Shown here: positions 41,887-63,589 of the stretch, piece by piece
How positions within the stretch are numbered: the stretch's first letter is position 1
How the letters are laid out: every line of letters starts with the position of its first letter
From: a virus
Reading direction: 5' to 3' (one strand)
IMG/VR virus record: IMGVR_UViG_3300031669_000021
Coordinates: 1 to 64,000 of that record
DNA: 64,000 nt
Translations under genes and position numbers: made by a program
Notes under the pieces: generated by a model
Told to the model about the DNA's origin: nothing
Database searches by the model: none
Seen by the model: the letters and a program-made list of their open reading frames with translations, nothing else

Positions 41887-41890
41887 TAAT

Positions 41891-42280
41891 ATGGATAGCG
41901 CATTAAAATCAGTAGAAATAAAAGAATTAAAACCAATCCGTGATCGCGTTATCGTAACAGAGATGAAGTTCACCGACAGATTCACCAAGGGCGGAATTTA
42001 TATCCCAAGCGACGACAAACAAATACACGGTGTTCGTCCACGTTGGGGCAAAGTCTTTGCTGTTGGTCCAGAACAGAAGGATATTCGTGTAGGCCAGTGG
42101 ATTTTAGTGGCTCACGGGCGTTGGACACGCGGAGTGAAAATTGAGGACGAAACGGGCACTCATACTCTCCGAATGGTCGATAATAACGACATTTTGTTGT
42201 CATCTGAGACAGAAGTTGTAGACGAAGTCCTTGGTGTGCCATTAACACAAGCTCAGATGAATGGCGCTCCTCGATACTAA
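41891..42280 (+). CDS. second GroES/gp31-like co-chaperonin, divergent
   Basis: ELKPIRDRVIV..GGIYIP..GKVFAVGP..GQWILV; 129 aa like T4 gp31 extended GroES. Confidence 0.55.
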   Translation: MDSALKSVEIKELKPIRDRVIVTEMKFTDRFTKGGIYIPSDDKQIHGVRPRWGKVFAVGPEQKDIRVGQWILVAHGRWTRGVKIEDETGTHTLRMVDNNDILLSSETEVVDEVLGVPLTQAQMNGAPRY

Positions 42281-42705: not shown

Positions 42706-43558
42706 ATGTGGCCAAATACACCATGGAATAAGGGGAAAAAATTAGAAGGCGAAAAATATAAAGGTGGTAGGAAGAACAAAGGGAAGAAAAGATCAGCCCA
42801 GTTTAAGGAAAACGCTAAAAATATATCTTCACTAAGAAAGCACACAGAGGCCGAGAAACAAAAACTTAGAGACAGACCTAAAGAAATATATAAGAAACCC
42901 AAGGCTACTCCCATCGCAACAACTGAACTATGTCAGTATAATTGTGGCCAGATAGCAAAATATTCATTTGCTAATGGCAAATTGTGCTGCTCAACGAGTC
43001 ATAACTCTTGTCCCGGTAAGAAAAAACAGTTTTCAGATATGGATCACACTGAGAGAACCGCAAAATCATTGGCGACCCGTCTTGAAAAGGGAATTACTAA
43101 AAGTTGTCAGATAAAAGGCGCAGCGACTAGAAAAGCAGCTGGGTTTTACGAAAAACACGCCGATATTATGAGGCAACATTGGATAGATCATCCTTGGGAC
43201 AATAATACACAATGTCCTATATTACCGTATAAAAATATAGATCTCGTGTATCAAGGAACATATGAATTCGAATTCTTAGAAGGATTAGAAGAAAAGCACG
43301 GAATCGAGTGGATTAAACAAAATGTTCTCCGCGGCCCGTCGGTTTGGTATTTTGATTCAGAAGATAATACCAAAAGACTTTACATCAGTGACTTTATAAT
43401 ATACAATACTATATGAAATAAAATCTGGCTGGACGTGGAATAGACACGGCAAAGACCTAAAATTGGAAGCCAAGAATAAAGCAAAATTAAATCAATGCAT
43501 ATCTGAAGGATATAAAGTAATGTTGGTATTAGATAAGAAAGAAATAACATATGAGTAA
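42706..43558 (+). pseudogene. Vsr/DUF559-like PD-(D/E)xK homing-endonuclease-like gene interrupted by a +1 frameshift at 43411-43416
   Basis: Frame 1 ends ..RLYISDFIIYNTI-TGA; frame +1 continues YEIKSGWTWNRHGKDLKLEAKNKAKLNQCISEGYKVMLV, completing PDF-x-IEIKG-x-WH...D..K...L...G..V; N-terminal Cys cluster and PWNKGKK motifs match HNH gene 44516. Confidence 0.5.
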
Positions 43559-44480
43559 TATTAAGACTCTTTGGGTGGAAAAGTATAGACCAAATACATT
43601 AGATGGTTACGTTTTCAAAGACGTGTCACAAAAGCAGCAAATAGAATCCTGGATTAAAGACAAATCAATTCCTCACTTACTGTTCAGTGGTGCAGCAGGC
43701 ATTGGTAAAACTACACTTGCAAAGATATTAATTAATTCTCTTGACGTTGACGAGTATGATGTCAAGGAGATTAACGCGTCGCGCGAAAATAGCGTAGATC
43801 ACATGCGTGACGTTATTATCGGCTTTGTAAGCACAATGCCGTTCGGCAGCTTTAAAATTGTATTACTCGACGAAGCTGATTATCTATCTCCAAACGCGCA
43901 GGCTATCTTGCGTGGTGTTATGGAAACGTATGCAGAAACGGCTCGATTTATTCTAACGTGCAACTATCCAAACAAGATTATTCCAGCATTGCACAGTAGA
44001 TGTCAGGGATTCCACTTCGAAAAGATTGATCACACTGAATTTACTGCCCGAGCAGCGACTGTATTGCTAACAGAGAACATAGAGTTTGATATGGATGTAT
44101 TGGATGACTTTGTTCGTGTCACCTATCCAGACTTGCGTAAATGCCTTAATACATTGCAAATGCACAGCACAACAGGTAAATTAATTGCATCTGCAGCCAA
44201 TAGTTCTACATCTGATTACAAGTTAGAAATGGTTGATCTCTTTAAGAAGGGTAAGATACGCGAGGGTAGACAATTAGTTTGTGCTCAGGCTCGACCGGAA
44301 GAGATGGAAGACTTATTCAGGTTCTGTTACGATAACTTGGACTTATGGAGCAAGGACGTAGAGGGACAAGATCAGGCAATTATTATCATTCGCCAGGGGT
44401 TAGTTAATCATTCTTTATGCGCTGACAGTGAGGTGAATCTGAGTGCAACTCTATGTGAGTTGGCAATGATCGGCAAATAG
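43551..44480 (+). CDS. 44: clamp-loader ATPase subunit (T4 gp44 / RFC small-subunit-like)
   Basis: WVEKYRP RFC box, Walker A SGAAGIGKTT, Walker B LLDEAD, SRC motif. Confidence 0.85.
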   Translation: MSNIKTLWVEKYRPNTLDGYVFKDVSQKQQIESWIKDKSIPHLLFSGAAGIGKTTLAKILINSLDVDEYDVKEINASRENSVDHMRDVIIGFVSTMPFGSFKIVLLDEADYLSPNAQAILRGVMETYAETARFILTCNYPNKIIPALHSRCQGFHFEKIDHTEFTARAATVLLTENIEFDMDVLDDFVRVTYPDLRKCLNTLQMHSTTGKLIASAANSSTSDYKLEMVDLFKKGKIREGRQLVCAQARPEEMEDLFRFCYDNLDLWSKDVEGQDQAIIIIRQGLVNHSLCADSEVNLSATLCELAMIGK

Positions 44481-44515: not shown

Positions 44516-45304
44516 ATGTTATGTAGATATGGATGTGGAAAAGAAGGAATTAGACAATTTAAAGATAAAACCTGGTGTTGCTCTCAAAATATAGGTCAAT
44601 GTTCTGAGATTGCACGACGAAGAGTTGCAACAAGAAAAGCAAAAGATGAACCTTGGCATTCTAAGAAAACCTGCGATAAAATAGGGAACGCAACGCGTGG
44701 TCGTGAATTATCTGAGGAATGGTGTCAAAATATTAGTAAAGCAACTAAAGGAAAAAGTAAAGGGCCGCAATCAGAAGAACACCGTCAAAATCTTGCTGCG
44801 GTAAGAAAAGGGAAAACCCCGTGGAATAAAGGATTGACTGTAGAAGATCCAAGAGTTGCATCTTATGTAGATAAGCAAACTGGACAGATACGGCAAGGAA
44901 ATTATATGTCGCCGACAAAATGGCAAGGTTCAGGAAATCCGTGGTATGGTAAAAACAGAAGTAAAGATAATAGTCCAAGATATAATGGAGAGCAGTATAA
45001 TAGAGAATTATCAGACTATCGACACAGGGTCATTTGGTTGTCAGAAATAACATATGAAAAATATAAAAATCAAATCAACCCAATGAATTATCCAAGAACA
45101 CTTGCTGGAGTTGATGGTGGGTTTCACTTAGATCATATCTATCCGATAGCAGAGGGATTTGATAACAATATACCACCCGAAATGTTGGCAGAATTAGAAA
45201 ATTTAAGATTGTTACCTTGGAGAGAGAATGTCGCTAAAAGTAAAAATCTGCTTGAAGAAATAATATCAGAATCAATTAAAACTTATTTAAAGGAAAATAA
45301 ATGA
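44516..45304 (+). CDS. HNH homing endonuclease with NUMOD3 motifs
   Basis: N-terminal CRYGCGKEG..CCSQNIGQC zinc cluster, PWNKG / HSEEHRQNL NUMOD3 motifs, C-terminal HLDHIYPIA..N HNH core. Confidence 0.65.
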   Translation: MLCRYGCGKEGIRQFKDKTWCCSQNIGQCSEIARRRVATRKAKDEPWHSKKTCDKIGNATRGRELSEEWCQNISKATKGKSKGPQSEEHRQNLAAVRKGKTPWNKGLTVEDPRVASYVDKQTGQIRQGNYMSPTKWQGSGNPWYGKNRSKDNSPRYNGEQYNRELSDYRHRVIWLSEITYEKYKNQINPMNYPRTLAGVDGGFHLDHIYPIAEGFDNNIPPEMLAELENLRLLPWRENVAKSKNLLEEIISESIKTYLKENK

Positions 45305-46626: not shown

Positions 46627-46654
46627 TTGACATTTCGGTTAAAGAGTGTATAAT
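46627..46654 (+). promoter_or_regulatory. sigma70-type early promoter, cassette copy
   Basis: TTGACATTTCGGTTAAAGAGTG-TATAATAGCATCATACAGTTAATAAAGAGAGC; second TTGACA at 46613. Confidence 0.6.
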
Positions 46655-50208: not shown

Positions 50209-50787
50209 ATGAGTCAATCCATAAAAGATGCATTAGAAAACGTTAAAGAAATCTTTATGAGTGATAGCGCACTTGCTACCTTACTCGATTATGAGCGCGT
50301 CATTGACGAGCTAGATGTTTATGCCTTTGCAAATTGGAAGAAGGGCGAGTTAGTCAAAGGGCCAGACTACGAGAAATACTTCGTAACCTGCACTTGGATG
50401 TTCCCATATAGCTTAATGCCTGACCCAAGAGGTGGAGAACAGTTACTCAATTATAACTGTCAAGTTACCTACAAGAAAGACATGCTAGAATATCCAGTCA
50501 AGCCAAAATCTCCTAAAGATTTTAAGCCTGGTACCAAAATAGCTAAGACAACAAAAGTGCCAATTTGGCTTGTAACAATCACAATGCCTAAGAGTTTGAT
50601 GGATGATATTGAGAAAGGATCTGTCGAGATTGAAGATGAAAACATTGATCTAGAAGACGTAAATCAAGCATACGAAACCGGGGCAGACGAAACAGAGAAT
50701 ACTAACCAAGAACCAGGAATGGGACAAGGCTTAGGTCAAGAACAAGGAATGGGCGGAGAAGAATATGCACAGCAACCACCACAGTAA
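50209..50787 (+). CDS. hypothetical protein 192 aa with Gly/Gln-rich acidic tail
   Basis: track ORF. Confidence 0.5.
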   Translation: MSQSIKDALENVKEIFMSDSALATLLDYERVIDELDVYAFANWKKGELVKGPDYEKYFVTCTWMFPYSLMPDPRGGEQLLNYNCQVTYKKDMLEYPVKPKSPKDFKPGTKIAKTTKVPIWLVTITMPKSLMDDIEKGSVEIEDENIDLEDVNQAYETGADETENTNQEPGMGQGLGQEQGMGGEEYAQQPPQ

Positions 50788-50806
50788 TTTAGCTGAAGGT
50801 ATAGAG

Positions 50807-51340
50807 ATGGGCGACTTAGCTCGTCTTGTTCAACCTTTAATGTCAATCGACGAATTCCGTAGCAAGATGGGCGAGGATAAGGACATCGTCGTCGTTGGCA
50901 TGACCGTACTAGGCAAAGAACCTGCAGATGATATCGTAAGCTTTGTTGAGAAGAGCTATGATTGGGTATTAGATGCTGACGTTTCTAGTGGTGAGACATC
51001 AGACGGTAACTATATGGTATTCATTGAATTGCAACGCAAACCAGAAGCACCAAAACACATTTACGAAATGCTTGAAGATTTAATGAATCTAACTGATCAA
51101 AAAACAGAAGACTGGACATTTAGCTATTATAACAAAGATGATAAGCTGCCTGTTACAATAAAGAACTTAGAAGACAAAGTTATTACCTCTCCTGAAGAAT
51201 ATGAAGCAAAAACAAGCAACGATTTAGAAGAAAGCATAGCCCTTAATAATCTTCGCGCAGCGGCCGGAGTTCGCATTCAACCGAAAAAAACCACTGATAT
51301 GGAAATCTTGAATATTCAAATCCAAGCTGGTATCAGATAA
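50807..51340 (+). CDS. hypothetical acidic protein approx 177 aa
   Basis: first ATG in frame after previous stop. Confidence 0.45.
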   Translation: MGDLARLVQPLMSIDEFRSKMGEDKDIVVVGMTVLGKEPADDIVSFVEKSYDWVLDADVSSGETSDGNYMVFIELQRKPEAPKHIYEMLEDLMNLTDQKTEDWTFSYYNKDDKLPVTIKNLEDKVITSPEEYEAKTSNDLEESIALNNLRAAAGVRIQPKKTTDMEILNIQIQAGIR

Positions 51341-51435: not shown

Positions 51436-52071
51436 ATGACACTTAATTTCACCTTCACGGTTGACCAACTACAGAAGATAATTCCTACAGACACTAACGT
51501 AGATGCTTGGTTTACAGCACTAAACAACAATCTCGCAGCTTATAACATTGATACAGAATTAAGAGTAGCTGGATTCTTATCTCAGTGTGCTCATGAATCA
51601 GGTGATTTTAACCATTTACATGAGAATCTTAACTACAGTGCTTCAGCATTACTTGCTGTTTGGCCAAGTCATTTTAGCTCTAACACAGTTGACCAATATG
51701 CTCGTAATCCAGAAAAGATTGCTAACTGTGCTTATGCAAATCGTATGGGGAACGGAGACGAAGCGAGCGGTGATGGATGGAAATTCCATGGTCGTGGCCC
51801 TATTCAAATTACAGGCAAGGCTAATTATGCGGCATTTAGCACGTTTGTCTACAATGACTTGCGTATATTAGATACGCCCGAGCTATTAGAAACCGATTTA
51901 GATATAGCTGTTCAAAGTGCATGTTGGTTTTGGGAATCACACTCCATAAATCAGTTTGCAGATGCAGGTGATGTTCTAAACATGACGAAGAGAATTAATG
52001 GCGGCACAATTGGATTGCCAGATAGAACAGCTCGTTATAATAACGCTATTGCAGTCCTACAAGGAGCATAA
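51436..52071 (+). CDS. endolysin, glycoside hydrolase family 19
   Basis: FLSQCAHESGDF and FHGRGPIQITGKANY GH19 catalytic signatures. Confidence 0.8.
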   Translation: MTLNFTFTVDQLQKIIPTDTNVDAWFTALNNNLAAYNIDTELRVAGFLSQCAHESGDFNHLHENLNYSASALLAVWPSHFSSNTVDQYARNPEKIANCAYANRMGNGDEASGDGWKFHGRGPIQITGKANYAAFSTFVYNDLRILDTPELLETDLDIAVQSACWFWESHSINQFADAGDVLNMTKRINGGTIGLPDRTARYNNAIAVLQGA

Positions 52072-52072
52072 T

Positions 52073-52447
52073 ATGTTCAATCTACAAAAACTCGAAGTTG
52101 ACGCTATCATTGCCGGCGTAATCATATTAATAATAATTGGCTTAGGTTTTGGTACCTATTACTATCATGGAAAATATGTCGACTCATTAGTAACAAACGG
52201 CCAGCTAAAAGCTCAGAATACTAGTTACTTGGCAACTATTAATGCCGATTCGGCTGCTAATGCCAAGCTTGCTGCTGATTCATTAGCAAGAGAGAAAGCC
52301 GCTGCAATTGCCCTCAAAGCTGCAAAAGAACAGGCAAGAGCATTCCAGAAGAAAGCGTCTGATATTCTAGCTTCTCAGGCAGCTTATCCAACAGATATGT
52401 GCAAGTCTGCAGATGCATTGTACGATGATTATCTCGGAGGTAAATGA
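52073..52447 (+). CDS. i-spanin (Rz-like)
   Basis: ATG 52073 right after endolysin stop; N-terminal TM, Ala/Lys-rich periplasmic coiled coil. Confidence 0.55.
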   Translation: MFNLQKLEVDAIIAGVIILIIIGLGFGTYYYHGKYVDSLVTNGQLKAQNTSYLATINADSAANAKLAADSLAREKAAAIALKAAKEQARAFQKKASDILASQAAYPTDMCKSADALYDDYLGGK

Positions 52448-52448
52448 T

Positions 52449-52715
52449 ATGAATAAGCTATATCTTTTAATTGCTGTTCTACCACTTTGCGGATGTTTAG
52501 CCACAGTTGGCCCTACAGTCGTTGATCATAACGTTATTGTTCAGGTGCCATGCATTGTGACGTTGCCAGAAAAGCCGATTTTTCCGTTAACAGATACTGG
52601 TTCAGTTAAAGATAATATATTTGTTAAGAGTAAAAAAGCATTATCTGAGATTGAGGCACGAAAAGCGTACGAGAAAGAACTAGAAGCTGCCGCAGAAAGT
52701 TGCACACAGAAATAA
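52449..52715 (+). CDS. o-spanin lipoprotein (Rz1-like)
   Basis: ATG 52449 2 nt after i-spanin stop; signal MNKLYLLIAVLPLCGC with lipobox. Confidence 0.55.
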   Translation: MNKLYLLIAVLPLCGCLATVGPTVVDHNVIVQVPCIVTLPEKPIFPLTDTGSVKDNIFVKSKKALSEIEARKAYEKELEAAAESCTQK

Positions 52716-52768
52716 TCTAAGCATATTTTTCTCTTCTTCCGATAAATATTGTTATTACGGAGAAGAAA

Positions 52769-53104
52769 ATGGCAAACCCAAAAACAACTGCTGGCGATCC
52801 TAGAGAATCGTGGGTCTATAATCAATGGCGTCCTTTTATGGCATGGAGTTACGGCATAGTTTGCCTATGGGATTTCATGATTGCTCCGATATTCTTTGCA
52901 TGGTTTTCTCACTTTGAGCATCTGACTACTCCGATAGTTTGGGTTCCACTAACAACAAGTGGTGGAGGTTTATATCACGTAGCAATGGGGACCATCATTG
53001 GCGTAACCTCTTATGGTAGAACTAAGGAAAAGGTTTTAAATAATGGACTCAGTGCTTTACCACAAATGCCGCCTGCAGATCCGCCGTCAGACGCAACACA
53101 ATAA
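52769..53104 (+). CDS. candidate holin / membrane protein
   Basis: 2-3 TM segments, Pro-rich C-terminal tail, follows spanins. Confidence 0.4.
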   Translation: MANPKTTAGDPRESWVYNQWRPFMAWSYGIVCLWDFMIAPIFFAWFSHFEHLTTPIVWVPLTTSGGGLYHVAMGTIIGVTSYGRTKEKVLNNGLSALPQMPPADPPSDATQ

Positions 53105-53121: not shown

Positions 53122-53150
53122 TTGACTTTCTGATGCAAATAGTGCATAAT
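53122..53150 (+). promoter_or_regulatory. sigma70-type early promoter
   Basis: TTGACT 53122-53127, 17 nt, TG-CATAAT 53143-53150. Confidence 0.55.
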
Positions 53151-53155
53151 AGCCT

Positions 53156-54013
53156 ATGAACTATTATGAACTCCTTGGTGTTACAAAAGACACCCCACAA
53201 GACGAAATTAAAAAGAAATATCGAGCCCTTGCGTCAAAACATCATCCTGACAAAGAAGGCGGCAATACTCAAAAGTTTCAGGAAATTCAGATAGCATATG
53301 ATACCCTAAGCGATGCACAGAAAAGACATCAGTATGATATGGAATTAGCTGGTGGCGGTAGACAGCAGTTTAGCTTTAATAGCAGTCATGCTAATGACAT
53401 GCATGAAGATATGCTTGATCTTCTTCGCAGGCAGTTTGGATTCAATGTAGGCGGCTTTCAATCACATTTCCAGCAATCTCATCGACCAGCAAGAAATCAA
53501 GATGTGAGAATTGCAGTTCAATTAGACTTATATGATACATTAGCGGAGCAAGATAAGACGTTAAATCTTAAGATTCCGGGTGCAGAAAGTAATGCAATTA
53601 GTATAAAAATTCCGCGAGGAGTACAGCACGGAACAATGATTCGTTATCCTGGATTAGGAAGTCACGAAATAACAACAGCGCCAAGAAGTGACTTATATGT
53701 CCAATTCCATATTAAACCACATCCGGTTTTTGAACAAGACGGAATTGATTTAACAATGCCCTTGACTATTAATTGCTTTGATGCTATACTGGGATGTGAG
53801 AAATCAATTACTGGTCTTGATGGGAGAATATTCAGGCTCAACATTCCGCCAGGCTCACAACATGGTAAGAAGTTAGGTATTCCTGATGCTGGTTTATACA
53901 CAACCGAGCATAACAATCGAGGAAAATTAATCATTGATCTTAATATCGTAATACCAGAAACTTTAACAGAATCACAAAAAGAAACAATCCGTTCTATTCG
54001 AGCGGCACTGTAA
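53156..54013 (+). CDS. DnaJ-family co-chaperone (J domain plus DnaJ C-terminal domains, no Zn finger; CbpA-like)
   Basis: YYELLGV..KKKYRALASKHHPDK J domain with HPD; C-terminal ..DLYV..H..F.R.G.DL beta-sandwich repeats. Confidence 0.75.
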   Translation: MNYYELLGVTKDTPQDEIKKKYRALASKHHPDKEGGNTQKFQEIQIAYDTLSDAQKRHQYDMELAGGGRQQFSFNSSHANDMHEDMLDLLRRQFGFNVGGFQSHFQQSHRPARNQDVRIAVQLDLYDTLAEQDKTLNLKIPGAESNAISIKIPRGVQHGTMIRYPGLGSHEITTAPRSDLYVQFHIKPHPVFEQDGIDLTMPLTINCFDAILGCEKSITGLDGRIFRLNIPPGSQHGKKLGIPDAGLYTTEHNNRGKLIIDLNIVIPETLTESQKETIRSIRAAL

Positions 54014-54047
54014 GCCGAAACAATAAATATTTTATATAGGGAACAAC

Positions 54048-56348
54048 ATGATACAGTCCAATCCAGAAATTGATATTATCGTTAACAATGCAACCGTAAA
54101 TGCAAAACAGCTTCATCATGAATATGTGACTCTGGATCATTTGGCATTGTCTCTCGTAACATATCAGCCATTTTATCAACTGCTAAGTGATTATGGCATT
54201 GCAGTCAATGAACTTGTAGCAGAACTAGTTGCTTATATCAATAGTCAAACTTCACTAGTAAGTAAAAAAGCAGAATACGATGCTCCTCGCCGAACACATG
54301 CTCTTGAACGAGTATTTAATCGTGCCTTCACACAAGTGTTGTTTAGTGGCAGAACAAACATGCAGGTCATTGATGTGTTTCTTAGCATCATCGCCGAAGA
54401 TAAAAGCACCGCTGTTTATTTCTACAACAAATACGGCCTTGATCGTCAAAGCCTGCTAACATATTACCAAAAAAACTATAACGAGAAGAAAGGGACTAAG
54501 TCGGCCATGTCACAAAAAGCAGATTCAATTCTTGAAGAGTATTGCACTGATCTAAATGCAAAAGCAACAGCTGGCAAAATCGATCCCGTCATTGGTCGAG
54601 AAATAGAACTGGAAGAAATATCTGAGGTTCTGGCCAAGAGAAACAAAAGCAATGTGCTCTTGGTTGGCGACCCAGGTGTTGGTAAAACAGCAATTGCGGA
54701 AGGACTTGCATTGCACATCGTCAATGGTCTGGTGCCGGAATATTTGAAGGACTACACCGTTTATAACCTTGATATTGGCTCCTTGTTGGCTGGTAGCAAA
54801 TATCGCGGCGAGTTTGAAGAAAAGCTTAAAGATGTTTTGAAGGCTCTTGACCTTAAAGGAAAAACAATCCTGTTCATCGACGAAGCGCACCAAATGCGTG
54901 GTGCTGGTCAAGGAAGCGGATCGAGCGTTGACTTCGCAAACATGATCAAGCCAGCATTGAGCAAAGGTAACATCAAAGTTATCGCAAGTACAACCTGGGA
55001 AGAATATACTCAATCATTTGAAAAGGATCGTGCGCTGATGCGTCGTTTCTATCGCATGACAGTCACTGAGCCTACTCCAGAAGTGGCAAAGGACATCTTA
55101 CGTGGTTTGAAAACGCATTTTGAAACGTTCCACAAAGGAACAATCGACGAAACAGCAATTGAAGCCGCGGTTGATTTAAGCGTTCGTTATCAAACAGACA
55201 AAAAACTTCCAGACAAAGCAATCGACCTAATTGACTCAGCGTGTGCGAGATTGCGTATTAAGAATGAGCCATTCGTTCTTAGTCGTCGTAACATCATTGA
55301 CGCAATCAGTAAGTTTACCAAAATCCCAGCAGATCAGATTGGATCAGAGCATGTTACTTCCTCATTAGAAGGACTTGAGGATAATATCCGCGTACATTTG
55401 TACGGTCAGGACAAAGCAATCGACGAAGTAATTGAGAAGATTTATGTTGCTCGCGCTGGTCTTAAGGCGATCAACAAACCAATCGGCAGCTTCTTGTTTA
55501 TGGGTCCAACAGGATCCGGCAAAACAGAACTTGCAAAATTATTGTCAACTAACTTGAATATGAAGTTATTGCGTTATGACATGGGCGAATATCAAGAAAA
55601 GCACAGCGTGGCTAAGTTTATTGGGGCGCCGCCTGGATATGTTGGCTATGACGACAGCAACATGGGTGGCGGATTGTTGATTAGTGAGATTGAAAAGAAT
55701 CCTAATGCAATTATCTTGTTGGATGAAATTGAAAAAGCTCACCCAGATGTTACAAATATTCTGCTTTCATTGATGGATGAAGGTGTGGTTACTTCGAGCA
55801 ACGGCAAAAAGGTTGATGCAAGAAATACAATCATAATCATGACATCGAACCTCGGCGCAGCAGAAAACGATAAGAACTCAATTGGTTTTGGTCGTGACCA
55901 CAAGCGCAGCGGCGAAGACGACAAAGCAGTTAAAGAATTCTTTAAACCAGAATTCCGAAATCGTCTTGATGGCATTTGCAAATTTAACAGCCTTGAGCAT
56001 GATAGTATTGTGAAGGTCGTACACAAGTTTGTCGGCGAGCTGAATGAATTATTAAGCGACAAGCATCTTAAGGTTCAACTAACTGATGCAGCACTTGAGT
56101 ACCTGGTATCAACGGGTTTTGATAGCAAGATGGGTGCTCGTCCAATGGCTCGCAAGATTAATAGCTTCATCAAGGTTCCGTTGAGTAAGAAGATATTGTT
56201 CACGTCGATCCCTCTTGGTTCTACTATTACAGTGGATGAAGTTAACGGAGAAGCAGAGTTCACTGTTGTGCCCCCAGAATTACCCCTAATAGGAAATACA
56301 GCACCGCTGGTGGATGAGAATGGCTATATCAATGTCCCAACAGAATAA
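54048..56348 (+). CDS. ClpA/ClpB-family AAA+ unfoldase, two nucleotide-binding domains
   Basis: NBD1 GDPGVGKTAIAEGLA / ILFIDEAH; NBD2 GPTGSGKTELAKLL / ILLDEIEKAHPDV; sensor GARP; 766 aa. Confidence 0.85.
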   Translation: MIQSNPEIDIIVNNATVNAKQLHHEYVTLDHLALSLVTYQPFYQLLSDYGIAVNELVAELVAYINSQTSLVSKKAEYDAPRRTHALERVFNRAFTQVLFSGRTNMQVIDVFLSIIAEDKSTAVYFYNKYGLDRQSLLTYYQKNYNEKKGTKSAMSQKADSILEEYCTDLNAKATAGKIDPVIGREIELEEISEVLAKRNKSNVLLVGDPGVGKTAIAEGLALHIVNGLVPEYLKDYTVYNLDIGSLLAGSKYRGEFEEKLKDVLKALDLKGKTILFIDEAHQMRGAGQGSGSSVDFANMIKPALSKGNIKVIASTTWEEYTQSFEKDRALMRRFYRMTVTEPTPEVAKDILRGLKTHFETFHKGTIDETAIEAAVDLSVRYQTDKKLPDKAIDLIDSACARLRIKNEPFVLSRRNIIDAISKFTKIPADQIGSEHVTSSLEGLEDNIRVHLYGQDKAIDEVIEKIYVARAGLKAINKPIGSFLFMGPTGSGKTELAKLLSTNLNMKLLRYDMGEYQEKHSVAKFIGAPPGYVGYDDSNMGGGLLISEIEKNPNAIILLDEIEKAHPDVTNILLSLMDEGVVTSSNGKKVDARNTIIIMTSNLGAAENDKNSIGFGRDHKRSGEDDKAVKEFFKPEFRNRLDGICKFNSLEHDSIVKVVHKFVGELNELLSDKHLKVQLTDAALEYLVSTGFDSKMGARPMARKINSFIKVPLSKKILFTSIPLGSTITVDEVNGEAEFTVVPPELPLIGNTAPLVDENGYINVPTE

Positions 56349-57078
56349 TCCCTGGGCCAAGTTTGACATTACCGAGAAACAAATAAAGAACACAAGTAAG
56401 ATGTTCTATGGTAAATATTTCTATCAGGCGGTATTGAAAATACCTGGAATCTATACCTATAGAGAAGTAAACAGGTATCAATCACTGAATCTCTTTACTG
56501 AGTATTTAGATAATAAAAAGAGCTATATTTCTAAGCACAATAGTTGGGGCTATGGAAGTCTCATTGAAGCTGACCCAAAACAAATCTACACTGTCCACCA
56601 GACACTACAAAAATTTAAGGGTGATGTTCGTGTTAGAACAGAAAAAAATAAGATATCTATTTGCACAGTTACAGAGGAAAAACTACTAGAGGTGCTAACC
56701 ACCCTTAAAGCTAAAGGTCTAGTAATTAATATATTTCAACCGGCAAGCGAAGAAGCAGCAGAGAAAATTAAGGACGGTATTCTTTTTGTTGGTAGCGACC
56801 CCAAACTAAAATTTAGGGCAATGATTAGAAGTAAAAGATATAACTCTACTGTCAGAACACAAATTGCTAACTATGTAGATAATTACGAGGGAACAATTTT
56901 GATGTCAGAGTACCTGAAACAAAAATTGCGTAAACCGGCGACGGTCATAGATGGCGACGAGCAGTATATATCTGGCTATTTCTATGTTGACAATATGGAA
57001 TCTCTTATGTTCTTACAACTTATTTCCCCCACTTTTGTCGGAAAAATATTTCCGCTCGAGACTCACGTAGATAAATAA
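56332..57078 (+). CDS. hypothetical protein approx 248 aa
   Basis: ATG 56332 overlapping clpA-like 3' end. Confidence 0.5.
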   Translation: MSQQNNPWAKFDITEKQIKNTSKMFYGKYFYQAVLKIPGIYTYREVNRYQSLNLFTEYLDNKKSYISKHNSWGYGSLIEADPKQIYTVHQTLQKFKGDVRVRTEKNKISICTVTEEKLLEVLTTLKAKGLVINIFQPASEEAAEKIKDGILFVGSDPKLKFRAMIRSKRYNSTVRTQIANYVDNYEGTILMSEYLKQKLRKPATVIDGDEQYISGYFYVDNMESLMFLQLISPTFVGKIFPLETHVDK

Positions 57079-57095: not shown

Positions 57096-57266
57096 ATGGC
57101 CGCAATTAATGTTGAGACAATCACAATAAGTATTAGTCGAATTCAGCGAATAAACGAAGAACTTAGTCCTATCGCAACAGAGGAATTAACGAGCACAGTT
57201 GAATCTATCGTTCAGGAATTAGTCGGAGAAAACGCTATCGTTGAAGTAGAAGTAAATAATGGCTAA
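57096..57266 (+). CDS. acidic small protein 56 aa
   Basis: late box GATAAATAAT 18 nt upstream; ATG 57096 to TAA 57264-57266. Confidence 0.35.
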   Translation: MAAINVETITISISRIQRINEELSPIATEELTSTVESIVQELVGENAIVEVEVNNG

Positions 57267-57678
57267 TCAATCGGTTGTTTTATTTCAGTCTTTGTCAACA
57301 AGTTCGACAGCACCGTATGCTCAATGGGATGCTGGTCCGAATTCTACAGACGCAAATAACAAACTATTGGCCTTTCCGTTCTATAGCGACAAAACAACAG
57401 GATGCGGGTATTATGGTCAGACAGATCCGTTTCATACTGTGTCTTATGCGACAACATCAAGCTTTATTGGCATTATTAGGTTGCAGGGAAGTCTGGCATC
57501 AGATCCGGCATCAACAGATTGGTATGATATTCCCGAGACCACTTACGGCGATGGCATTACATCAATGCCGAATGTCCCAAAATTAATAAATTTTAATGGA
57601 AATCATATATGGATTAGAGCAGTAATTGTAAAATTTATTGCAGGACAAATTAATAATGTTCTGTTCTCACATAACTAA
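57259..57678 (+). CDS. hypothetical protein 139 aa
   Basis: track ORF. Confidence 0.5.
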   Translation: MANQSVVLFQSLSTSSTAPYAQWDAGPNSTDANNKLLAFPFYSDKTTGCGYYGQTDPFHTVSYATTSSFIGIIRLQGSLASDPASTDWYDIPETTYGDGITSMPNVPKLINFNGNHIWIRAVIVKFIAGQINNVLFSHN

Positions 57679-57689
57679 AAGAGGAAAGC

Positions 57690-58580
57690 ATGGCTAAGAA
57701 GAAAGCAGCAACACAAAAGAAAGAAACAAAAGCAGCAATTGCACCGCCAAACTTTAATATCGACGGAAATGCAAAGACTCACACTGATGTGGTCCAGCAA
57801 ATTCGAGAAATTCAAAAGAAGTATGCAGAAGATAATCCTAATCAAGCACCAGGAACACCATACGACTTTAGTAAATCACATCTTCATATTGGATTGCCTT
57901 GCTACGGCGGTCAACTTCTTGAATCAACAATGACGAGCATTATTAAGTTCATCTTGCTTGCTAGTCGAGCAGGGTTAAACTGGTCACTTGATACGATGGT
58001 TAATGAGTCATTGATTACTCGTGGTCGAAATAACTTGATGGCAAAGATGCTGTCAAACAAAGCAGCAACACATTTTATGTTCATTGATGCAGATATTCGC
58101 TTTGAGGCAGAATCAATTCTACAAATGATGGCAGCAAACAAAGATATTATTGCCGGCATGTATCCAAAGAAAGCATACCCAATCGCATATAACATCAACT
58201 TAAAGCCGCAAACTAAAATCCAAGGGCCGCTGTTTACTGTTGACACAGCAGCAACTGGCTTCTTAATGTATAAGCGAGAAGTATATGAGAAACTGATCGC
58301 GGCTCACCCTAACACAAAATACGTGGACGATGTGGGATTGGGCAAACAATACGAACCAAATATGTATGCCATCTTTGATTGTGTGATTGATGAGAAGGGC
58401 CACTACTTGTCAGAGGACTGGACATTCTGCCGTCGTGCTTCTGCACTTGGATACGATATATGGGCGGACTCACGTGTATTGCTTAACCACAGCGGAACGC
58501 ACGAATTCCAAGGAGATTTGAGCAAGCTTGGCGGACCTGTAGCGGCGGCCGTGGCAGCACCTCAAAATAATGCAAAATAA
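57690..58580 (+). CDS. putative GT-A fold glycosyltransferase
   Basis: FMFIDADIRFE DxD-type motif; family unclear. Confidence 0.4.
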   Translation: MAKKKAATQKKETKAAIAPPNFNIDGNAKTHTDVVQQIREIQKKYAEDNPNQAPGTPYDFSKSHLHIGLPCYGGQLLESTMTSIIKFILLASRAGLNWSLDTMVNESLITRGRNNLMAKMLSNKAATHFMFIDADIRFEAESILQMMAANKDIIAGMYPKKAYPIAYNINLKPQTKIQGPLFTVDTAATGFLMYKREVYEKLIAAHPNTKYVDDVGLGKQYEPNMYAIFDCVIDEKGHYLSEDWTFCRRASALGYDIWADSRVLLNHSGTHEFQGDLSKLGGPVAAAVAAPQNNAK

Positions 58581-58583
58581 CCC

Positions 58584-58612
58584 TTGACAAGAGGGTCATT
58601 TGAGTGTATAGT
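58584..58612 (+). promoter_or_regulatory. sigma70 promoter driving the tRNA
   Basis: CCCTTGACA 58584-58589, 17 nt, TG-TATAGT 58605-58612; tRNA 5' end 12 nt downstream. Confidence 0.6.
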
Positions 58613-58623
58613 ATATACATAAT

Positions 58624-58701
58624 GCGATTGTAGCTTAGTTTGGCCAAAAGCAGCGGCTTCTAACCCCGTGATCGTCGGTTCGAATCCGACCAAGCGCACC
58701 A
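58624..58701 (+). tRNA. tRNA, anticodon loop TTCTAAC giving anticodon CUA (amber-suppressor type); amino-acid identity undetermined
   Basis: Acceptor GCGATTG/CAAGCGC (one A-G mismatch), D-arm GCTT..AAGC, T-arm GTCGG-TTCGAAT-CCGAC, 4-nt variable loop, discriminator A, encoded CCA; U33 and A37 flank CTA; anticodon stem has one C-C mismatch. Confidence 0.55.
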
Positions 58702-61564: not shown

Positions 61565-63589
61565 ATGACTAAGAAAACACTTAACGAAGCAAAAACTGTA
61601 GGCGATATAACTATTGATGATGGAACTATCTTAGACAAAGGTCAAAAAATTGGATCAGTGATGCACGAACTAAAAAACGGATATCATCCTGTAGTTCGAC
61701 TAAGAATCGGCAAGTTTGTCAAAGAGTATGAAGTAGATACTAAGAATCTAATAGATACTATATTTTCTGATATCCAATCACATCTTGGCGGAGTCACTGA
61801 AGGACAAATCAATGAGATGTCTCCAGCAGAGCAAGCAAGGATGGCCGAAATTAGAGAAATTGGCCAAAAAATGAGAGATGTTAATAATATATTTACAACT
61901 GGTCAGAAGATGAATGACAAGGTTCTGGTTGCTGGTGCTCGTCAAAAACTGGCTCAGTTAGCAAAACAAAAACACGATCTTGAAACTCAACCTGTTGCAG
62001 AAGGCAAAAAAGATAAAAAAAACAAAGAAGAAGGAACCTATACATTAGTATTCTCTTCGGATCAGAAGCCTTACTCTTGGGGTAAATTTTGGGCCAAAAG
62101 TAAGGAAGAGGCTAAACAAAGAGCAAAAGATATATTTAAGAAGCACGGATTTACTAATGTCAATATTAGAGAACTCGCAATAAAAGAATCAATTGAAGAA
62201 GATAATATTGGCGGAATTCAGACTAAAAGAGTGTCAGGACCTGGTGCTACTGTTGGTCAAGTCGATGAAATGTTTGCCGATCAGGGTGCAGGGCATTCTC
62301 CAGAAAACTCAAGTGCTGCATACCATCGAGTAGGTGTAACTGTTGTTGACCCAACCGCATCAGATATAACCAAACGAAAAGAAAAAATACAAAAAACTAT
62401 TCGTATGAAGGGCGATGCCGATACTGCTGTCAAAAGAGCCACAAAATACTATGAGAATAAGGGATATAGAGTGCTCGATGCATGGTATATTGAAGGATAT
62501 AATAAAGTATCTGTTACAGAGGGGAATGAAGGCGTAGATACTATCGAGATGGACGTTGAGTTGTTTATTCGTTGTTTAGAGTGGGCTAAAGAGAATGCAC
62601 CAGATGACATTGCATTGCACAAATTTACTGAAAATGTCGTAGCTAAAAATGGTATCTTAACCATGTCTGATTATGAAAGTTTGGTTCCTCAAGGTGCGCC
62701 CGTTGAAGAAGACAAGTATGAAGACGAAGAGGCAAAATATGCCAATATAGAAAAAATCGCTACAAAAAGATCAAATGAAATTGAAAAGACAGGTGATCGG
62801 GTTTATATGATAAACAGTTACACAGATCCTGAAACAAAAAGGATGGCTGCTGAATTGCTTATCAAAAGAAAAGATGGAACGAAAGATAAAGAAATTGTTA
62901 GAGAAGATGCCTCAGCGGGCGGAACAAGTTCAGCATCAGTTGCGACAGTGGTTTCTGGAACACCGGGAATTATTAGACGAGTAGGTAAGGGCAAAAAGAA
63001 GGGATTATACGGCAACTCCGTAAATCCTCAAACATTTACGAGTGCATTAGGTAAAGGAATTTACGAAGCAGAAGAAAAGAAGAAGGGCGAAGAAAAGTTT
63101 GACTATGATGCATGGAAGAAGTCAGGCGATAAGTCCAAAAAGCCGCGCGGTAAGCACAGCGAAAAGACATTGCTCGGTAAAGGTAAGAACGGCTGGAACA
63201 AGGTAAGCGAAGCAGCAATGCAGCCTGGTTCTAAGTTTGTTACTATCCCACACGAAGTATGGTCTGCTAAATCGCCAGAAGATCAAGCAAGATTAAAAGC
63301 AAAACACCCTAACTTAAAAGTAACGGGTGTGCCTAAGGCACCAAGAGTGCCCAAGCCTAAGAAAAATTACGAGGGTGTACAACAGGCAATTGATGCTGCA
63401 ATCGGTGATGCATTTCCTGACGGTGATCCAATTGACTTACTATTTGACAGATATAGCATGGAAGAATTAGATAAAGCAGTTCGTTCCACTAAGAGCGGTA
63501 AAAACTATAATGATTATATTAAGCAAGCATGGCAACAAAATATAGACGATAGCCCAGAACGATGGGGTGATATGGAGAACCCTTGGTAA
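61565..63589 (+). CDS. hypothetical Lys-rich protein 674 aa
   Basis: long uninterrupted ORF. Confidence 0.6.
   Translation: MTKKTLNEAKTVGDITIDDGTILDKGQKIGSVMHELKNGYHPVVRLRIGKFVKEYEVDTKNLIDTIFSDIQSHLGGVTEGQINEMSPAEQARMAEIREIGQKMRDVNNIFTTGQKMNDKVLVAGARQKLAQLAKQKHDLETQPVAEGKKDKKNKEEGTYTLVFSSDQKPYSWGKFWAKSKEEAKQRAKDIFKKHGFTNVNIRELAIKESIEEDNIGGIQTKRVSGPGATVGQVDEMFADQGAGHSPENSSAAYHRVGVTVVDPTASDITKRKEKIQKTIRMKGDADTAVKRATKYYENKGYRVLDAWYIEGYNKVSVTEGNEGVDTIEMDVELFIRCLEWAKENAPDDIALHKFTENVVAKNGILTMSDYESLVPQGAPVEEDKYEDEEAKYANIEKIATKRSNEIEKTGDRVYMINSYTDPETKRMAAELLIKRKDGTKDKEIVREDASAGGTSSASVATVVSGTPGIIRRVGKGKKKGLYGNSVNPQTFTSALGKGIYEAEEKKKGEEKFDYDAWKKSGDKSKKPRGKHSEKTLLGKGKNGWNKVSEAAMQPGSKFVTIPHEVWSAKSPEDQARLKAKHPNLKVTGVPKAPRVPKPKKNYEGVQQAIDAAIGDAFPDGDPIDLLFDRYSMEELDKAVRSTKSGKNYNDYIKQAWQQNIDDSPERWGDMENPW

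What the first reader, a model, noticed from the sequence alone, without database searches (positions are those of the whole stretch)
53122..56348. Phage-borne DnaJ(CbpA-like) plus ClpA-like unfoldase operon behind an early promoter
A sigma70 promoter (53122-53150) is followed by a 285-aa J-domain protein (HPD motif; DnaJ C-terminal beta-sandwich domains; no Zn-finger region) and 35 nt later a 766-aa two-ring AAA+ protein with both Walker A/B sets and Clp N-domain-like start. Tailed phages rarely encode a Clp ATPase. The pair could remodel or degrade host proteins, or assist capsid assembly alongside the GroES paralogs at 41354-42280. No ClpP/ClpS partner is visible in this window.
Basis: partly seen in the sequence, partly recalled or inferred. 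Interest (0 to 1): 0.6.

Follow-up and report, generated by a model that had tools for sequence, protein, structure and literature searches.

The report
Jumbo-phage DnaJ plus ClpA chaperone operon
A giant bacteriophage carries its own DnaJ-type co-chaperone and an intact ClpA protein-unfolding motor as one operon; the pair is real and is inherited across hundreds of related uncultured phages, but it is already annotated in cultured jumbo phages and its role in infection has not been tested.

Summary
ORF 53156-54013 is a 285-aa class-B J-protein: it has the HPD motif and the DnaJ C-terminal domains, and no zinc finger. ORF 54048-56348 is a 766-aa ClpA-type double-ring AAA+ unfoldase. It is collinear with E. 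coli ClpA at 44% identity. Both Walker A/B sets, the KYR and GYVG pore loops, the arginine fingers and an IGF ClpP-docking tripeptide are intact.

The pair is not a recent host insertion. DnaJ sits directly upstream of ClpA in all 82 related loci that hold enough upstream sequence, on contigs up to 355-400 kb. It is also adjacent in Pseudomonas phage PA5oct and Agrobacterium phage Atu_ph07, and one gene apart in Sinorhizobium phage Phosso.

The promoter is real. Its hexamers and position are conserved, with the -10 ending 5-9 nt before the dnaJ ATG in 41 of 61 distinct relatives, against 0.2% of shuffles. That geometry predicts a leaderless dnaJ mRNA.

No ClpP or ClpS lies in the window or within 10 kb of ClpA in relatives. 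Cultured ClpA-bearing jumbo phages encode an unlinked ClpP.

My best reading is a phage proteostasis module: the J-protein drives host DnaK, and ClpA docks on ClpP. It probably serves virion protein folding, assembly and quality control. This is a new member of a known kind, of moderate interest.

The parts
53122..53150 (+). Sigma-70-type promoter. -35 TTGACT at 53122-53127, 17-nt spacer, -10 CATAAT at 53145-53150. Only 5 nt separate the -10 from the dnaJ ATG, so the predicted transcript starts at or next to the A of the ATG (leaderless).
   Evidence: In relatives, 41 of 61 distinct upstream sequences carry a promoter matching at least 10 of 12 positions whose -10 ends 5-9 nt before the ATG (30 of them at exactly 6 nt). 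The shuffle expectation is 0.18%, and the same scan upstream of clpA gives 0 of 61. TTGAC is 93-100% conserved and TAnAAT positions 98-100%, while the spacer is only 30-60% conserved.
53156..54013 (+). dnaJ-like gene: a 285-aa class-B J-protein. J domain at residues 2-61 with HPD at 30-32 (nt 53243-53251). Short, moderately G/F-rich linker at residues 66-105. DnaJ C-terminal domains at residues 118-267. No zinc finger.
   Evidence: An in-frame TAG two codons upstream fixes the start codon. HPD is invariant in 82 of 82 relatives, and none of the 82 has a zinc-finger motif.
54048..56348 (+). clpA-like gene: a 766-aa two-ring AAA+ unfoldase. Residue positions: N-domain about 1-145; D1 Walker A 207-214; KYR pore loop 251-253; D1 Walker B 274-281; RR fingers 332-333; D2 Walker A 486-493; GYVG pore loop 530-533; D2 Walker B 555-563; IGF ClpP-docking tripeptide 612-614 (nt 55881-55889); sensor-2 GAR 696-698.
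56314..57078 (+). Conserved 254-aa ORF whose start overlaps the last 35 nt of clpA. Probably a third gene of the operon; function unknown.
   Evidence: An ORF of about 240-250 aa is called in the same position, overlapping the end of clpA, in all four sets of relatives looked up. tblastn finds it directly downstream of clpA in 58 fetched loci. The family has 546 representatives at 50% clustering. No Pfam, PHROG or PADLOC hit. The AlphaFold model has pLDDT 72.6 and no meaningful PDB fold match.
57096..58580 (+). Three downstream co-oriented genes that may belong to the same transcription unit: a 56-aa ORF, a 139-aa ORF (PHROG 'virion structural protein' family) and a 296-aa glycosyltransferase-like protein (phrog_1574). 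No terminator-like site on the + strand separates them from clpA.
   Evidence: Conserved downstream of clpA in relatives.
51436..53104 (+). Upstream lysis cassette: GH19 endolysin, i-spanin-like (DUF2570) ORF, lipobox o-spanin-like ORF and holin-like 3-TM protein. It is context, not part of the operon. It is absent from the equivalent position in phage PA5oct.

Best explanation
This is a vertically inherited proteostasis operon of a lineage of uncultured jumbo phages with genomes of about 355-400 kb, related to PA5oct, Atu_ph07 and RaK2-like phages.

Shown:
- Host-type sigma-70 promoter hexamers are conserved in sequence and position immediately upstream of dnaJ, in a geometry that puts the transcription start on the ATG.
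- The first gene encodes a class-B J-protein with an invariant HPD motif.
- The second gene encodes a full-length ClpA-type hexameric unfoldase with every catalytic, pore-loop and ClpP-docking (IGF) motif conserved.
- The two genes are always adjacent, and their divergences track each other.

Inferred:
- Host RNA polymerase transcribes dnaJ-clpA, and probably the four genes downstream, starting with a leaderless dnaJ message.
- The J-protein stimulates the host's DnaK. No Hsp70 gene was found in the window.
- The ClpA hexamer threads substrates through its KYR and GYVG pores and docks through IGF onto a ClpP peptidase. That peptidase is either encoded elsewhere in the phage genome, as in every cultured relative checked, or is the host's. 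The result would be a phage-specified ClpAP protease and unfoldase.
- Together with the two GroES paralogs 11 kb upstream, the phage supplies regulatory partners for the GroEL, DnaK and ClpP machines.

The most likely biological role is folding, assembly and quality control of the very large virion proteome. I base this on the gene's constant placement among virion-protein genes in at least five jumbo-phage lineages.
For: Identity of the two proteins.

Motif conservation across 85 clade sequences:
- IGF in 82 of 85; the other three have IGI, IGM or IGL.
- The KYRG core, the GY[VI]G core, the Walker A GxxGxGK and Walker B DE cores, the RR fingers and GAR never vary; flanking residues vary conservatively.
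- IGF is also present in Phosso and PA5oct; PBECO4 has IGM.

Architecture: no M-domain. The largest insertion relative to E. coli ClpA is 4 aa.

Linkage and co-inheritance:
- DnaJ lies immediately upstream of ClpA in 82 of 82 related loci with enough upstream sequence.
- It is adjacent in PA5oct and Atu_ph07, and separated only by a peptide deformylase gene in Phosso.
- The DnaJ and ClpA distance matrices correlate: Mantel r=0.78, with 0 of 999 permutations reaching it.
- The dnaJ-clpA gap is often only 8 nt, and the two genes overlap in a few loci.

Not host-derived recently:
- All sampled relatives at 67-92% identity lie on syntenic phage contigs.
- The best cellular ClpA found was about 40-49% identical.

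Promoter footprint and leaderless geometry.

Structural-gene neighbourhood:
- Window 50209-51340 and 57259-57678 match PHROG 'virion structural protein' families.
- PA5oct gp295, gp299 and gp300 were detected in virions by mass spectrometry.
- PBECO4, XaC1 and CBB have tail-sheath and virion genes on both sides of ClpA.
- The order PhoH(-), two structural genes, DnaJ, ClpA is shared with PA5oct.

ClpP and GroES:
- Cultured ClpA-bearing jumbo phages encode ClpP.
- The GroES paralogs are confirmed.
Against: - There is no experimental evidence for any phage ClpA. Literature searches found only annotations and speculation.
- A sigma-70 promoter of the type that precedes the window's many small, presumably early genes fits host takeover at least as well as late morphogenesis.
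- Gene neighbourhood is weak evidence in mosaic jumbo genomes.
- No ClpP, ClpS or DnaK lies in the 64-kb window or within 10 kb of ClpA in 84 relatives. Two ClpP-seeded scans of viral contigs did not return any known contig of this clade, but both lists were truncated. The peptidase partner is therefore unidentified.
- The ClpA score is below NCBIfam's equivalog cut-off: 817 bits against 993.
- The N-domain, which binds substrates and adaptors, is only 27% identical to E. coli's, so specificity cannot be predicted.
- About half of the window's genes lack a recognisable Shine-Dalgarno sequence. The leaderless claim therefore rests on promoter geometry alone, not on a mapped 5' end.
Confidence: 0.55

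Rival explanations
1. Host takeover or anti-defence protease. Expressed early from the host-type promoter, the phage ClpA captures host ClpP and competes with host ClpX and ClpA. It redirects proteolysis towards host proteins such as defence proteins, regulators or N-degron substrates, or it changes antitoxin turnover. The J-protein hijacks or titrates DnaK, as the RB43 J-domain protein Rki does when it stabilises sigma-32.
For: - The promoter type is the same as the near-consensus sigma-70 promoters in front of the window's many small, early-looking ORFs.
- The IGF loop is under strong conservation.
- No linked phage ClpP.
- The operon is insulated from the upstream late-type lysis genes by terminator-like hairpins in many relatives.
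- Literature precedents: Rki, DnaJ-dependent phage sensing by bNACHT25, and phage ClpS predicted to feed the host ClpAP, all as cited in PMC12619734 and PMC7824862.
Against: - No substrate or target is known.
- Cultured relatives carry their own ClpP, so capture of host ClpP is not required.
- The gene sits among structural genes in all lineages examined.
- PADLOC shows only generic partial AAA+ matches.
Confidence: 0.25
2. ClpP-independent remodeller. The ClpA-like hexamer works only as an unfoldase or disassembly chaperone, in the way E. coli ClpA activates P1 RepA. Possible targets are scaffolds, replication complexes or aggregates, in parallel with the DnaK/J system, and no proteolysis is involved.
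For: - No ClpP in the window or near ClpA in 84 relatives.
- ClpA alone is known to have chaperone activity (established knowledge, recalled from memory: Wickner et al. 1994).
- The constant pairing with a J-protein suggests a chaperone context.
Against: - The ClpP-docking tripeptide is kept as IG[FILM] in 85 of 85 clade sequences and in three distant phage lineages, although overall identity falls to 35-45%. That is hard to explain without a ClpP partner.
- Every cultured relative checked encodes ClpP.
- There is no ClpB-type M-domain for direct DnaK coupling.
Confidence: 0.1
3. A recently captured host gene pair (a moron) with no phage-specific role, or a decaying copy.
For: The proteins look like ordinary bacterial DnaJ/CbpA and ClpA. 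Identity of each phage lineage's ClpA to E. coli ClpA (42-45%) is as high as identity between phage lineages (35-44%).
Against: - No cellular homologue above about 49% was found.
- Hundreds of phage contigs carry the pair in the same synteny at 63-92% identity.
- All functional motifs are intact.
- The two genes co-diverge.
- The flanking genes are phage genes.
Confidence: 0.02

Closest known systems
ClpA and DnaJ of cultured jumbo phages: Agrobacterium phage Atu_ph07 gp292/gp293, Pseudomonas phage PA5oct gp298/gp297, Sinorhizobium phage Phosso (PHROG 4871)
   Same: - Same two-gene order, DnaJ then ClpA.
- Same ClpA architecture, with an IGF loop.
- Same placement among virion-protein genes.
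- With PA5oct, the wider order PhoH(-), two structural genes, DnaJ, ClpA, structural gene is shared, with a GroES-like chaperonin nearby.
- The window ClpA matches PHROG 4871 end to end at E=1e-240.
   Different: - Only 40-44% ClpA identity and 30-38% DnaJ identity.
- A lysis cassette is inserted upstream.
- The leaderless promoter geometry is specific to this clade. In PA5oct the best promoter-like match lies 37 nt upstream of the ATG, and Phosso has no good match.
- A conserved 250-aa ORF overlaps the end of clpA only in this clade.
- Those phages have an identified ClpP of their own. None has been identified for this clade.
E. coli ClpA, the ClpAP protease ATPase subunit (PDB 1KSF, 6W1Z)
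   Same: - Collinear over residues 5-730 at 44% identity.
- N-domain, D1 and D2 rings, KYR and GYVG pore loops, and an IGL-equivalent loop (IGF) are all present.
- There is no middle domain.
- ClpA N-domain residues that I recall as contacting ClpS are conserved or conservatively replaced: E23 stays E, E28 becomes D (E in most relatives), and T81 stays T. The residue list is from memory.
   Different: - Below NCBIfam's equivalog cut-off (817 against 993 bits).
- N-domain only 27% identical.
- No clpS gene upstream; a J-protein gene sits there instead.
- A 4-aa insertion (SNMG) lies just after the D2 pore loop.
Class-B (type II) bacterial J-proteins: CbpA (PDB 3LZ8) and Thermus thermophilus DnaJ2 (PDB 4J80, 6PSI)
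   Same: J domain with HPD, a linker, two C-terminal beta-sandwich domains, and no zinc finger. The full-length match to 3LZ8 has E=1e-34.
   Different: - Scores are far below the CbpA equivalog cut-off (140 against 403 bits) and the DnaJ equivalog cut-off (203 against 377 bits).
- No cbpM-like modulator gene is evident.
- DNA binding is untested.
- The linker is only moderately rich in G and F (22%).
Other phage-encoded co-chaperones: T4 gp31 (a GroES analogue) and RB43 Rki (a J-domain protein)
   Same: The logic is the same: the phage supplies the co-chaperone and uses the host's ATP-driven machine. This window also holds two GroES paralogs.
   Different: As I recall, Rki has a J-domain but lacks the DnaJ C-terminal substrate-binding domains; here the full class-B protein is present. 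Neither T4 nor RB43 pairs its co-chaperone with a Clp ATPase.

Membership tests
ClpA (Clp/Hsp100 class I AAA+ ATPase that partners with ClpP) | Two AAA+ modules, each with Walker A and Walker B motifs, plus arginine fingers and sensor-2 | tested here: met
   The window protein has GDPGVGKT and ILFIDEAH in D1, GPTGSGKT and IILLDEIEK in D2, RRF and GARP. The motif cores (GxxGxGK, DE, RR, GAR) do not vary in 85 clade sequences.
ClpA (Clp/Hsp100 class I AAA+ ATPase that partners with ClpP) | Substrate-translocating pore loops: KYR in D1 and GYVG in D2 | tested here: met
   AGSKYRGEFEE and GAPPGYVGYDD align with the E. coli loops. The KYRG and GY[VI]G cores are conserved across the clade.
ClpA (Clp/Hsp100 class I AAA+ ATPase that partners with ClpP) | ClpP-docking IG[FL] loop in D2 | tested here: met
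   IGF at residues 612-614 aligns with E. coli IGL 617-619. It is IGF in 82 of 85 clade sequences (IGI, IGM or IGL in the rest), IGF in Phosso and PA5oct, and IGM in PBECO4.
ClpA (Clp/Hsp100 class I AAA+ ATPase that partners with ClpP) | No coiled-coil middle domain, which separates ClpA from ClpB, Hsp104 and ClpC | tested here: met
   Collinear with E. coli ClpA. The largest insertion is 4 aa. ClpB and ClpC structures and models match only as two separate stretches.
ClpA (Clp/Hsp100 class I AAA+ ATPase that partners with ClpP) | Clp N-terminal double-repeat domain | tested here: inconclusive
   Pfam Clp_N detects one repeat (residues 19-64, E=2.7e-7). The alignment with the ClpA N-domain is collinear but only 27% identical.
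ClpA (Clp/Hsp100 class I AAA+ ATPase that partners with ClpP) | Score above the curated equivalog threshold (TIGR02639) | tested here: not met
   816.9 bits against a cut-off of 993.15. It is still the top-scoring family, ahead of ClpB at 650 bits. The protein is therefore ClpA-type, not a certified orthologue.
ClpA (Clp/Hsp100 class I AAA+ ATPase that partners with ClpP) | Physical complex with ClpP, and ATP-dependent degradation | not testable with these tools
   Needs biochemistry. No ClpP gene was found in the window or near ClpA in relatives.
Class-B J-protein (Hsp40 type II; CbpA-like) | J domain with the HPD tripeptide | tested here: met
   PF00226 E=7e-22. HPD at residues 30-32, invariant in 82 of 82 relatives.
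Class-B J-protein (Hsp40 type II; CbpA-like) | C-terminal substrate-binding domains (DnaJ_C) without the CxxCxGxG zinc-finger insertion | tested here: met
   PF01556 E=6e-30 covers the whole profile. None of 82 sequences has a CxxCxG motif.
Class-B J-protein (Hsp40 type II; CbpA-like) | Orthology with CbpA proper (NF007618), and curved-DNA binding | tested here: not met
   140 bits against a cut-off of 403. DNA binding cannot be tested here. 'CbpA-like' describes the architecture only.
ClpB/Hsp104 disaggregase (considered and rejected) | M-domain coiled coil, and no IGF loop | tested here: not met
   No M-domain, and the IGF loop is present. The ClpB model matches as two split stretches with a lower score.
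Leaderless mRNA | Transcription start at or within a few nt of the start codon | tested here: inconclusive
   The geometry fits. The -10 ends 5 nt before the ATG in the window and 6 nt before it in 30 of 61 distinct relatives, and the hexamers are conserved. There are no 5'-end data.
Anti-phage defence system components (PADLOC) | Full-length match to a defence-system model | tested here: not met
   Only partial generic AAA+ matches for ClpA, and no match for the other five proteins.

The most novel reading that the evidence does not exclude
The phage carries only the specificity or regulatory partners of the three host machines: GroES for GroEL, a J-protein for DnaK, and ClpA for ClpP. It expresses the J-protein and ClpA operon from a leaderless message that can be translated whatever the state of host initiation. 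A virus-specified ClpA would then reprogramme host ClpP early in infection for host takeover or anti-defence. This would be the first viral AAA+ protease specificity subunit with a defined role.
Probability: 0.15. Interest if true: 0.6.

Novelty: new member of a known kind. Interest (0 to 1): 0.35.

Why it matters
Phage-encoded ClpA is widespread: hundreds of uncultured jumbo-phage contigs in two public collections and several cultured genera. It is strongly conserved, yet I found no experimental study of any of them in the literature held here. This analysis shows three things.

1. The motor is fully equipped to feed a ClpP peptidase.
2. It has been inherited together with a J-protein.
3. In one large clade the operon has a conserved promoter geometry that predicts a leaderless message.

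The question 'what does a virus do with its own ClpAP and Hsp40?' can be tested directly in cultivable relatives such as PA5oct and Atu_ph07. For this window, however, the finding adds a new member to an already annotated class rather than a new kind of system.

Tried and rejected
1. Recent host origin. A scan of one genome per GTDB species found only two close hits (66-67%). Both are on short MAG contigs (14.6 and 18.5 kb, binned as Lishizhenia and Fischerella) and are probably mis-binned phage. Cellular ClpA was about 49% identical at best. Rejected.

2. Looking for the clade's own ClpP.
- tblastn and a ClpP HMM over the window plus 84 related loci (1.63 Mb) found nothing.
- Two ClpP-seeded scans of IMG/VR returned 160 contigs, none of them a known ClpA-clade contig. 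Both lists were cut at the best 80 of more than 560, so this is inconclusive.
- A third scan was seeded with window ORF 13722-14189, whose homologue sits next to ClpP in two contigs. It found no ClpP nearby.

3. Function of the overlapping 254-aa ORF.
- No family hits.
- The word-indexed homology search found only 4 relatives.
- The AlphaFold model is moderately confident, with pLDDT 72.6.
- Foldseek against the PDB gave no real match. The best hits were HemQ/chlorite-dismutase-like with TM 0.17.
- Function unresolved.

4. A T4-type late promoter (TATAAATA) in front of clpA. Only near-matches are present, and many relatives have just 8 nt between the genes. Dropped.

5. Expression timing from the PA5oct omics paper. 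The main text does not mention these genes, and no supplements are held.

6. Defence-system membership. PADLOC gave only generic AAA+ hits.

7. Monophyly of phage ClpA from identities alone. The pattern is star-like, 35-45% between phage lineages and to E. coli. Shared ancestry is argued from synteny instead.

8. Whether this clade is the published 'moraphage' lineage. Moraphages are 200-307 kb and are predicted to infect Bacteroidota. This clade is about 355-400 kb and uses canonical TTGACA/TATAAT promoters. Not established.

Full report
**What is there**

The two ORFs exist exactly as described.

The first, 53156-54013, encodes a 285-aa protein.
- It has a J domain (PF00226, E=7e-22, residues 2-61) and the complete DnaJ C-terminal domain (PF01556, E=6e-30).
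- The HPD tripeptide is at residues 30-32.
- There is no CxxCxG zinc-finger motif.
- The linker is moderately rich in G and F.
- Its best solved relative is a full-length class-B DnaJ, the CbpA-type protein in PDB 3LZ8 (E=1e-34).
- It scores far below the curated cut-offs for both DnaJ and CbpA. 'CbpA-like' therefore describes its architecture, not orthology.

The second ORF, 54048-56348, encodes a 766-aa protein.
- Its best NCBIfam family is ClpA (817 bits over residues 7-730). That is ahead of ClpB (650) and ClpV (543), but below the equivalog cut-off of 993.
- It aligns collinearly with E. coli ClpA structures (E=3e-185) at 44% identity.
- The largest insertion is 4 aa, so there is no ClpB/ClpC-type middle domain.

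**Is the ClpA degenerate?**

No. All of the following align with the E. coli motifs:
- Walker A and B of both rings.
- The D1 KYR and D2 GYVG pore loops.
- The RR arginine fingers.
- The sensor-2 GAR.
- An IGF tripeptide at residues 612-614 that aligns with the E. coli IGL ClpP-docking motif.

Across 85 sequences of the phage clade these motif cores do not vary. The docking tripeptide is IGF in 82 and IGI, IGM or IGL in the other three. Phosso and PA5oct also have IGF, and PBECO4 has IGM.

The N-domain is the most divergent folded part. It is 27% identical to E. coli's and 55% identical within the clade, against 77-79% for the large ATPase subdomains of the two rings.

**Is it a host insertion?**

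No. The window is from a jumbo phage. Directly upstream lie the following:
- Two PHROG 'virion structural protein' genes.
- A lysis cassette made of a GH19 endolysin, spanin-like ORFs and a holin-like protein.

Elsewhere the window holds:
- A T4 gp44-type clamp loader.
- A polynucleotide kinase and an RNA ligase.
- A DNA ligase.
- PhoH.
- Two GroES paralogs.

Evidence from relatives:
- The large protein database returned 120 listed relatives at 67-100% identity.
- The four I looked up lie on contigs of 149-400 kb at their longest. All show the same gene order: two conserved ~190-aa ORFs (homologues of the window's structural genes), usually a lysis cassette, DnaJ, ClpA, an overlapping ORF of about 250 aa, a 54-aa ORF and a ~300-aa ORF homologous to the window's glycosyltransferase-like gene.
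- IMG/VR holds at least 259-381 relatives.
- Across the 84 fetched clade loci (80 from IMG/VR, 4 lookups) plus the window, DnaJ lies directly upstream of ClpA in every locus that has enough upstream sequence, 82 of 82.
- DnaJ diverges faster than ClpA (mean pairwise identity 49% against 68%), but the two distance matrices correlate: Mantel r=0.78, with 0 of 999 permutations reaching it. The pair is therefore co-inherited.
- In one genome per GTDB species, only two close hits appeared, on short and probably mis-binned MAG contigs. Cellular ClpA reached about 49% at best.

**The promoter**

Taken alone, the 10-of-12 match at 53122-53150 is not significant: the scan found 29 sites in 9 kb against 26 expected. 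Two things make it credible.

1. The window contains a series of perfect or near-perfect TTGACA-16/17-TATAAT sites in intergenic regions, 23-35 nt upstream of ORF starts. This phage therefore clearly uses host sigma-70 promoters.
2. The site is a phylogenetic footprint.
   - Among 61 distinct upstream sequences, 41 carry a promoter matching at least 10 of 12 positions whose -10 ends 5-9 nt before the dnaJ ATG. Thirty of them end at exactly 6 nt.
   - The same geometry appears in 0.18% of shuffled sequences and in 0 of 61 clpA upstream regions.
   - TTGAC is 93-100% conserved and the A, A and T of the -10 are 98-100% conserved, while the spacer is only 30-60% conserved.

A 6-nt gap places the A of the ATG at the canonical +1 position. 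An in-frame TAG two codons upstream rules out a longer ORF. The prediction is that dnaJ is translated from a leaderless mRNA.

A minority of relatives have the promoter 20-37 nt upstream instead, and several of these carry a Shine-Dalgarno-like sequence. In many relatives a hairpin sits just before the -35 or overlaps it, sometimes followed by a T-run. That suggests the operon is insulated from the upstream lysis genes.

'Early' expression is inferred only from promoter type. About half of the window's genes lack a clear Shine-Dalgarno sequence, so the absence of one here is not informative by itself.

**The missing partners**

- No ClpP or ClpS is in the window or within 10 kb of ClpA in 84 relatives. 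This covered 1.63 Mb with a ClpP HMM that scores positive controls at 292-375 bits.
- No Hsp70 or Cpn60 domain turned up in any window ORF submitted to Pfam. The 674-aa ORF at 61565-63589 was checked only against PHROGs.
- Every cultured ClpA-bearing jumbo phage I checked has a bona fide, unlinked ClpP: PA5oct (gp272, detected by mass spectrometry), Atu_ph07, Phosso, XaC1, RaK2, K64-1, CBB and GAP32.
- Whether this clade also has one elsewhere in its roughly 355-kb genome could not be settled. Two ClpP-seeded scans of IMG/VR returned none of the clade's known contigs, but both lists were truncated.

**Comparison with what is known**

The DnaJ-ClpA pairing is already present in annotated genomes:
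- Atu_ph07 gp293 and gp292. PMC6102473 notes that ClpA is conserved in most RaK2-like phages.
- PA5oct gp297 and gp298.
- Phosso, with a peptide deformylase gene between the two.

RaK2-like phages (PBECO4, XaC1, CBB) have ClpA alone, wedged between virion-protein genes. Other points:
- Iyer et al. (PMC7824862) list ClpA, ClpX, ClpP, ClpS and DnaJ in jumbo-phage groups and predict chaperone or translocase roles.
- ClpA is a core gene of the 'moraphages' (PMC12619734).
- The window ClpA matches PHROG 4871 end to end (E=1e-240).
- With PA5oct the wider synteny is shared: a GroES-like chaperonin nearby, then PhoH on the opposite strand, two structural genes, DnaJ, ClpA and another structural gene.
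- Pairwise ClpA identities between phage lineages and to E. coli are star-like at 35-45%. Common ancestry of the module is therefore argued from synteny, not from sequence distance.
- I found no experimental study of a phage ClpA.

**Mechanism and rivals**

The best-supported reading is a phage proteostasis operon.
- The J-protein works with host DnaK.
- ClpA works with a ClpP peptidase, encoded by the phage elsewhere or by the host.
- Together with the two GroES paralogs, the phage then supplies partners for all three main chaperone and protease machines.

The constant placement among virion genes in at least five lineages favours a role in folding, assembly and quality control of the large virion proteome. 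The host-type promoter keeps the rival alive: early host takeover or anti-defence proteolysis. A ClpP-independent remodeller is made unlikely by the strict conservation of the docking tripeptide. A recent host-derived passenger is effectively excluded.

**The third gene**

A 254-aa ORF (56314-57078) overlaps the last 35 nt of clpA. An ORF of about 240-250 aa overlaps the end of clpA in the relatives inspected. The family has 546 representatives at 50% clustering. It has no family match. Its AlphaFold model (pLDDT 72.6) has no convincing structural neighbour. It may be an operon-specific partner, but nothing can be said about what it does.

**Verdict**

The features I believe are not yet described are:
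- The conserved leaderless promoter geometry.
- The strict co-inheritance of the pair across a very large uncultured clade.
- The overlapping third gene.

The system itself is a new member of a known, already annotated kind. Interest is moderate, at 0.35.

Noticed in passing
window 58584-58701: A tRNA with anticodon CUA, which would read the UAG amber stop, lies at 58624-58701 (ARAGORN; Rfam tRNA, 53 bits). It has its own near-consensus promoter, TTGACA-17-TATAGT at 58584-58612, whose -10 ends 11 nt before the tRNA. TAG is the rarest stop codon in the window: 9 of 111 ORFs, against TAA 70 and TGA 32. No in-frame TAG recoding is evident in the window's ORFs.
   Followed up: partly
window 109-136, 819-846, 2848-2875, 5631-5659, 30093-30121, 46627-46654 (and 11-of-12 sites at 1241, 16147, 19037, 24834): A series of perfect 12-of-12 sigma-70 consensus promoters (TTGACA-16/17-TATAAT) lies in intergenic regions. 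Most sit 23-35 nt upstream of small ORFs. They look like an early-gene promoter set and imply a host with canonical sigma-70 recognition.
   Followed up: partly
window 41354-42280: Two GroES (Cpn10) paralogs lie at 41354-41644 (E=1e-28) and 41891-42280 (E=9e-9, longer and more divergent). A glutaredoxin gene (41641-41886) sits between them. PA5oct also has a GroES-like 'chaperonin' a few kb upstream of its DnaJ-ClpA pair.
   Followed up: partly
window 56314-57078: A 254-aa ORF overlaps the 3' end of clpA by 35 nt. An ORF of similar size sits in the same place across the clade, but the sequence evolves fast (about 20-27% identity at 63-69% ClpA identity). The family has 546 representatives, no known domain and no structural match.
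   Followed up: yes
L013, L014, L020, L006 and other related loci, 30-60 nt upstream of dnaJ: In many relatives a GC-rich hairpin lies just upstream of the dnaJ promoter's -35 hexamer or encloses it. In some it is followed by a T-run between the -35 and the -10. This looks like an intrinsic terminator for the upstream lysis genes overlapping the promoter. The window itself lacks a strong hairpin there (-5.5 kcal/mol).
   Followed up: partly
window 19363-20265 and 25351-26538 (also 5689-6939): A T4-type RNA repair pair is present: polynucleotide kinase-phosphatase and RNA ligase 1. There is also an ATP-dependent DNA ligase. Together they suggest a counter-measure against host anticodon nucleases.
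   Followed up: no
window 33019-33993: A 324-aa protein carries an N-terminal 'major tropism determinant' domain (Mtd_N, E=1e-13). It is followed by a 400-aa ORF and a 1081-aa ORF with no family hits. It may be a receptor-binding or tail-fibre module. I did not look for a diversity-generating retroelement.
   Followed up: no
window 14917-15774 and 44516-45304: Two putative homing endonuclease genes: one with a weak GIY-YIG match and one with a NUMOD3 motif. The second sits directly after the gp44-type clamp-loader gene (43551-44480).
   Followed up: no
window 55647-55670 (ClpA residues 534-541): A 4-aa insertion (SNMG) relative to E. coli ClpA lies immediately after the D2 GYVG pore loop. I did not check whether it is conserved in the clade.
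   Followed up: no
related contigs (for example L004 375-1823): Relatives carry tripartite tricarboxylate transporter genes (TctA, TctC) a few kb upstream of the DnaJ-ClpA operon. This is an unusual auxiliary metabolic gene for a phage and a possible clue to the host.
   Followed up: no
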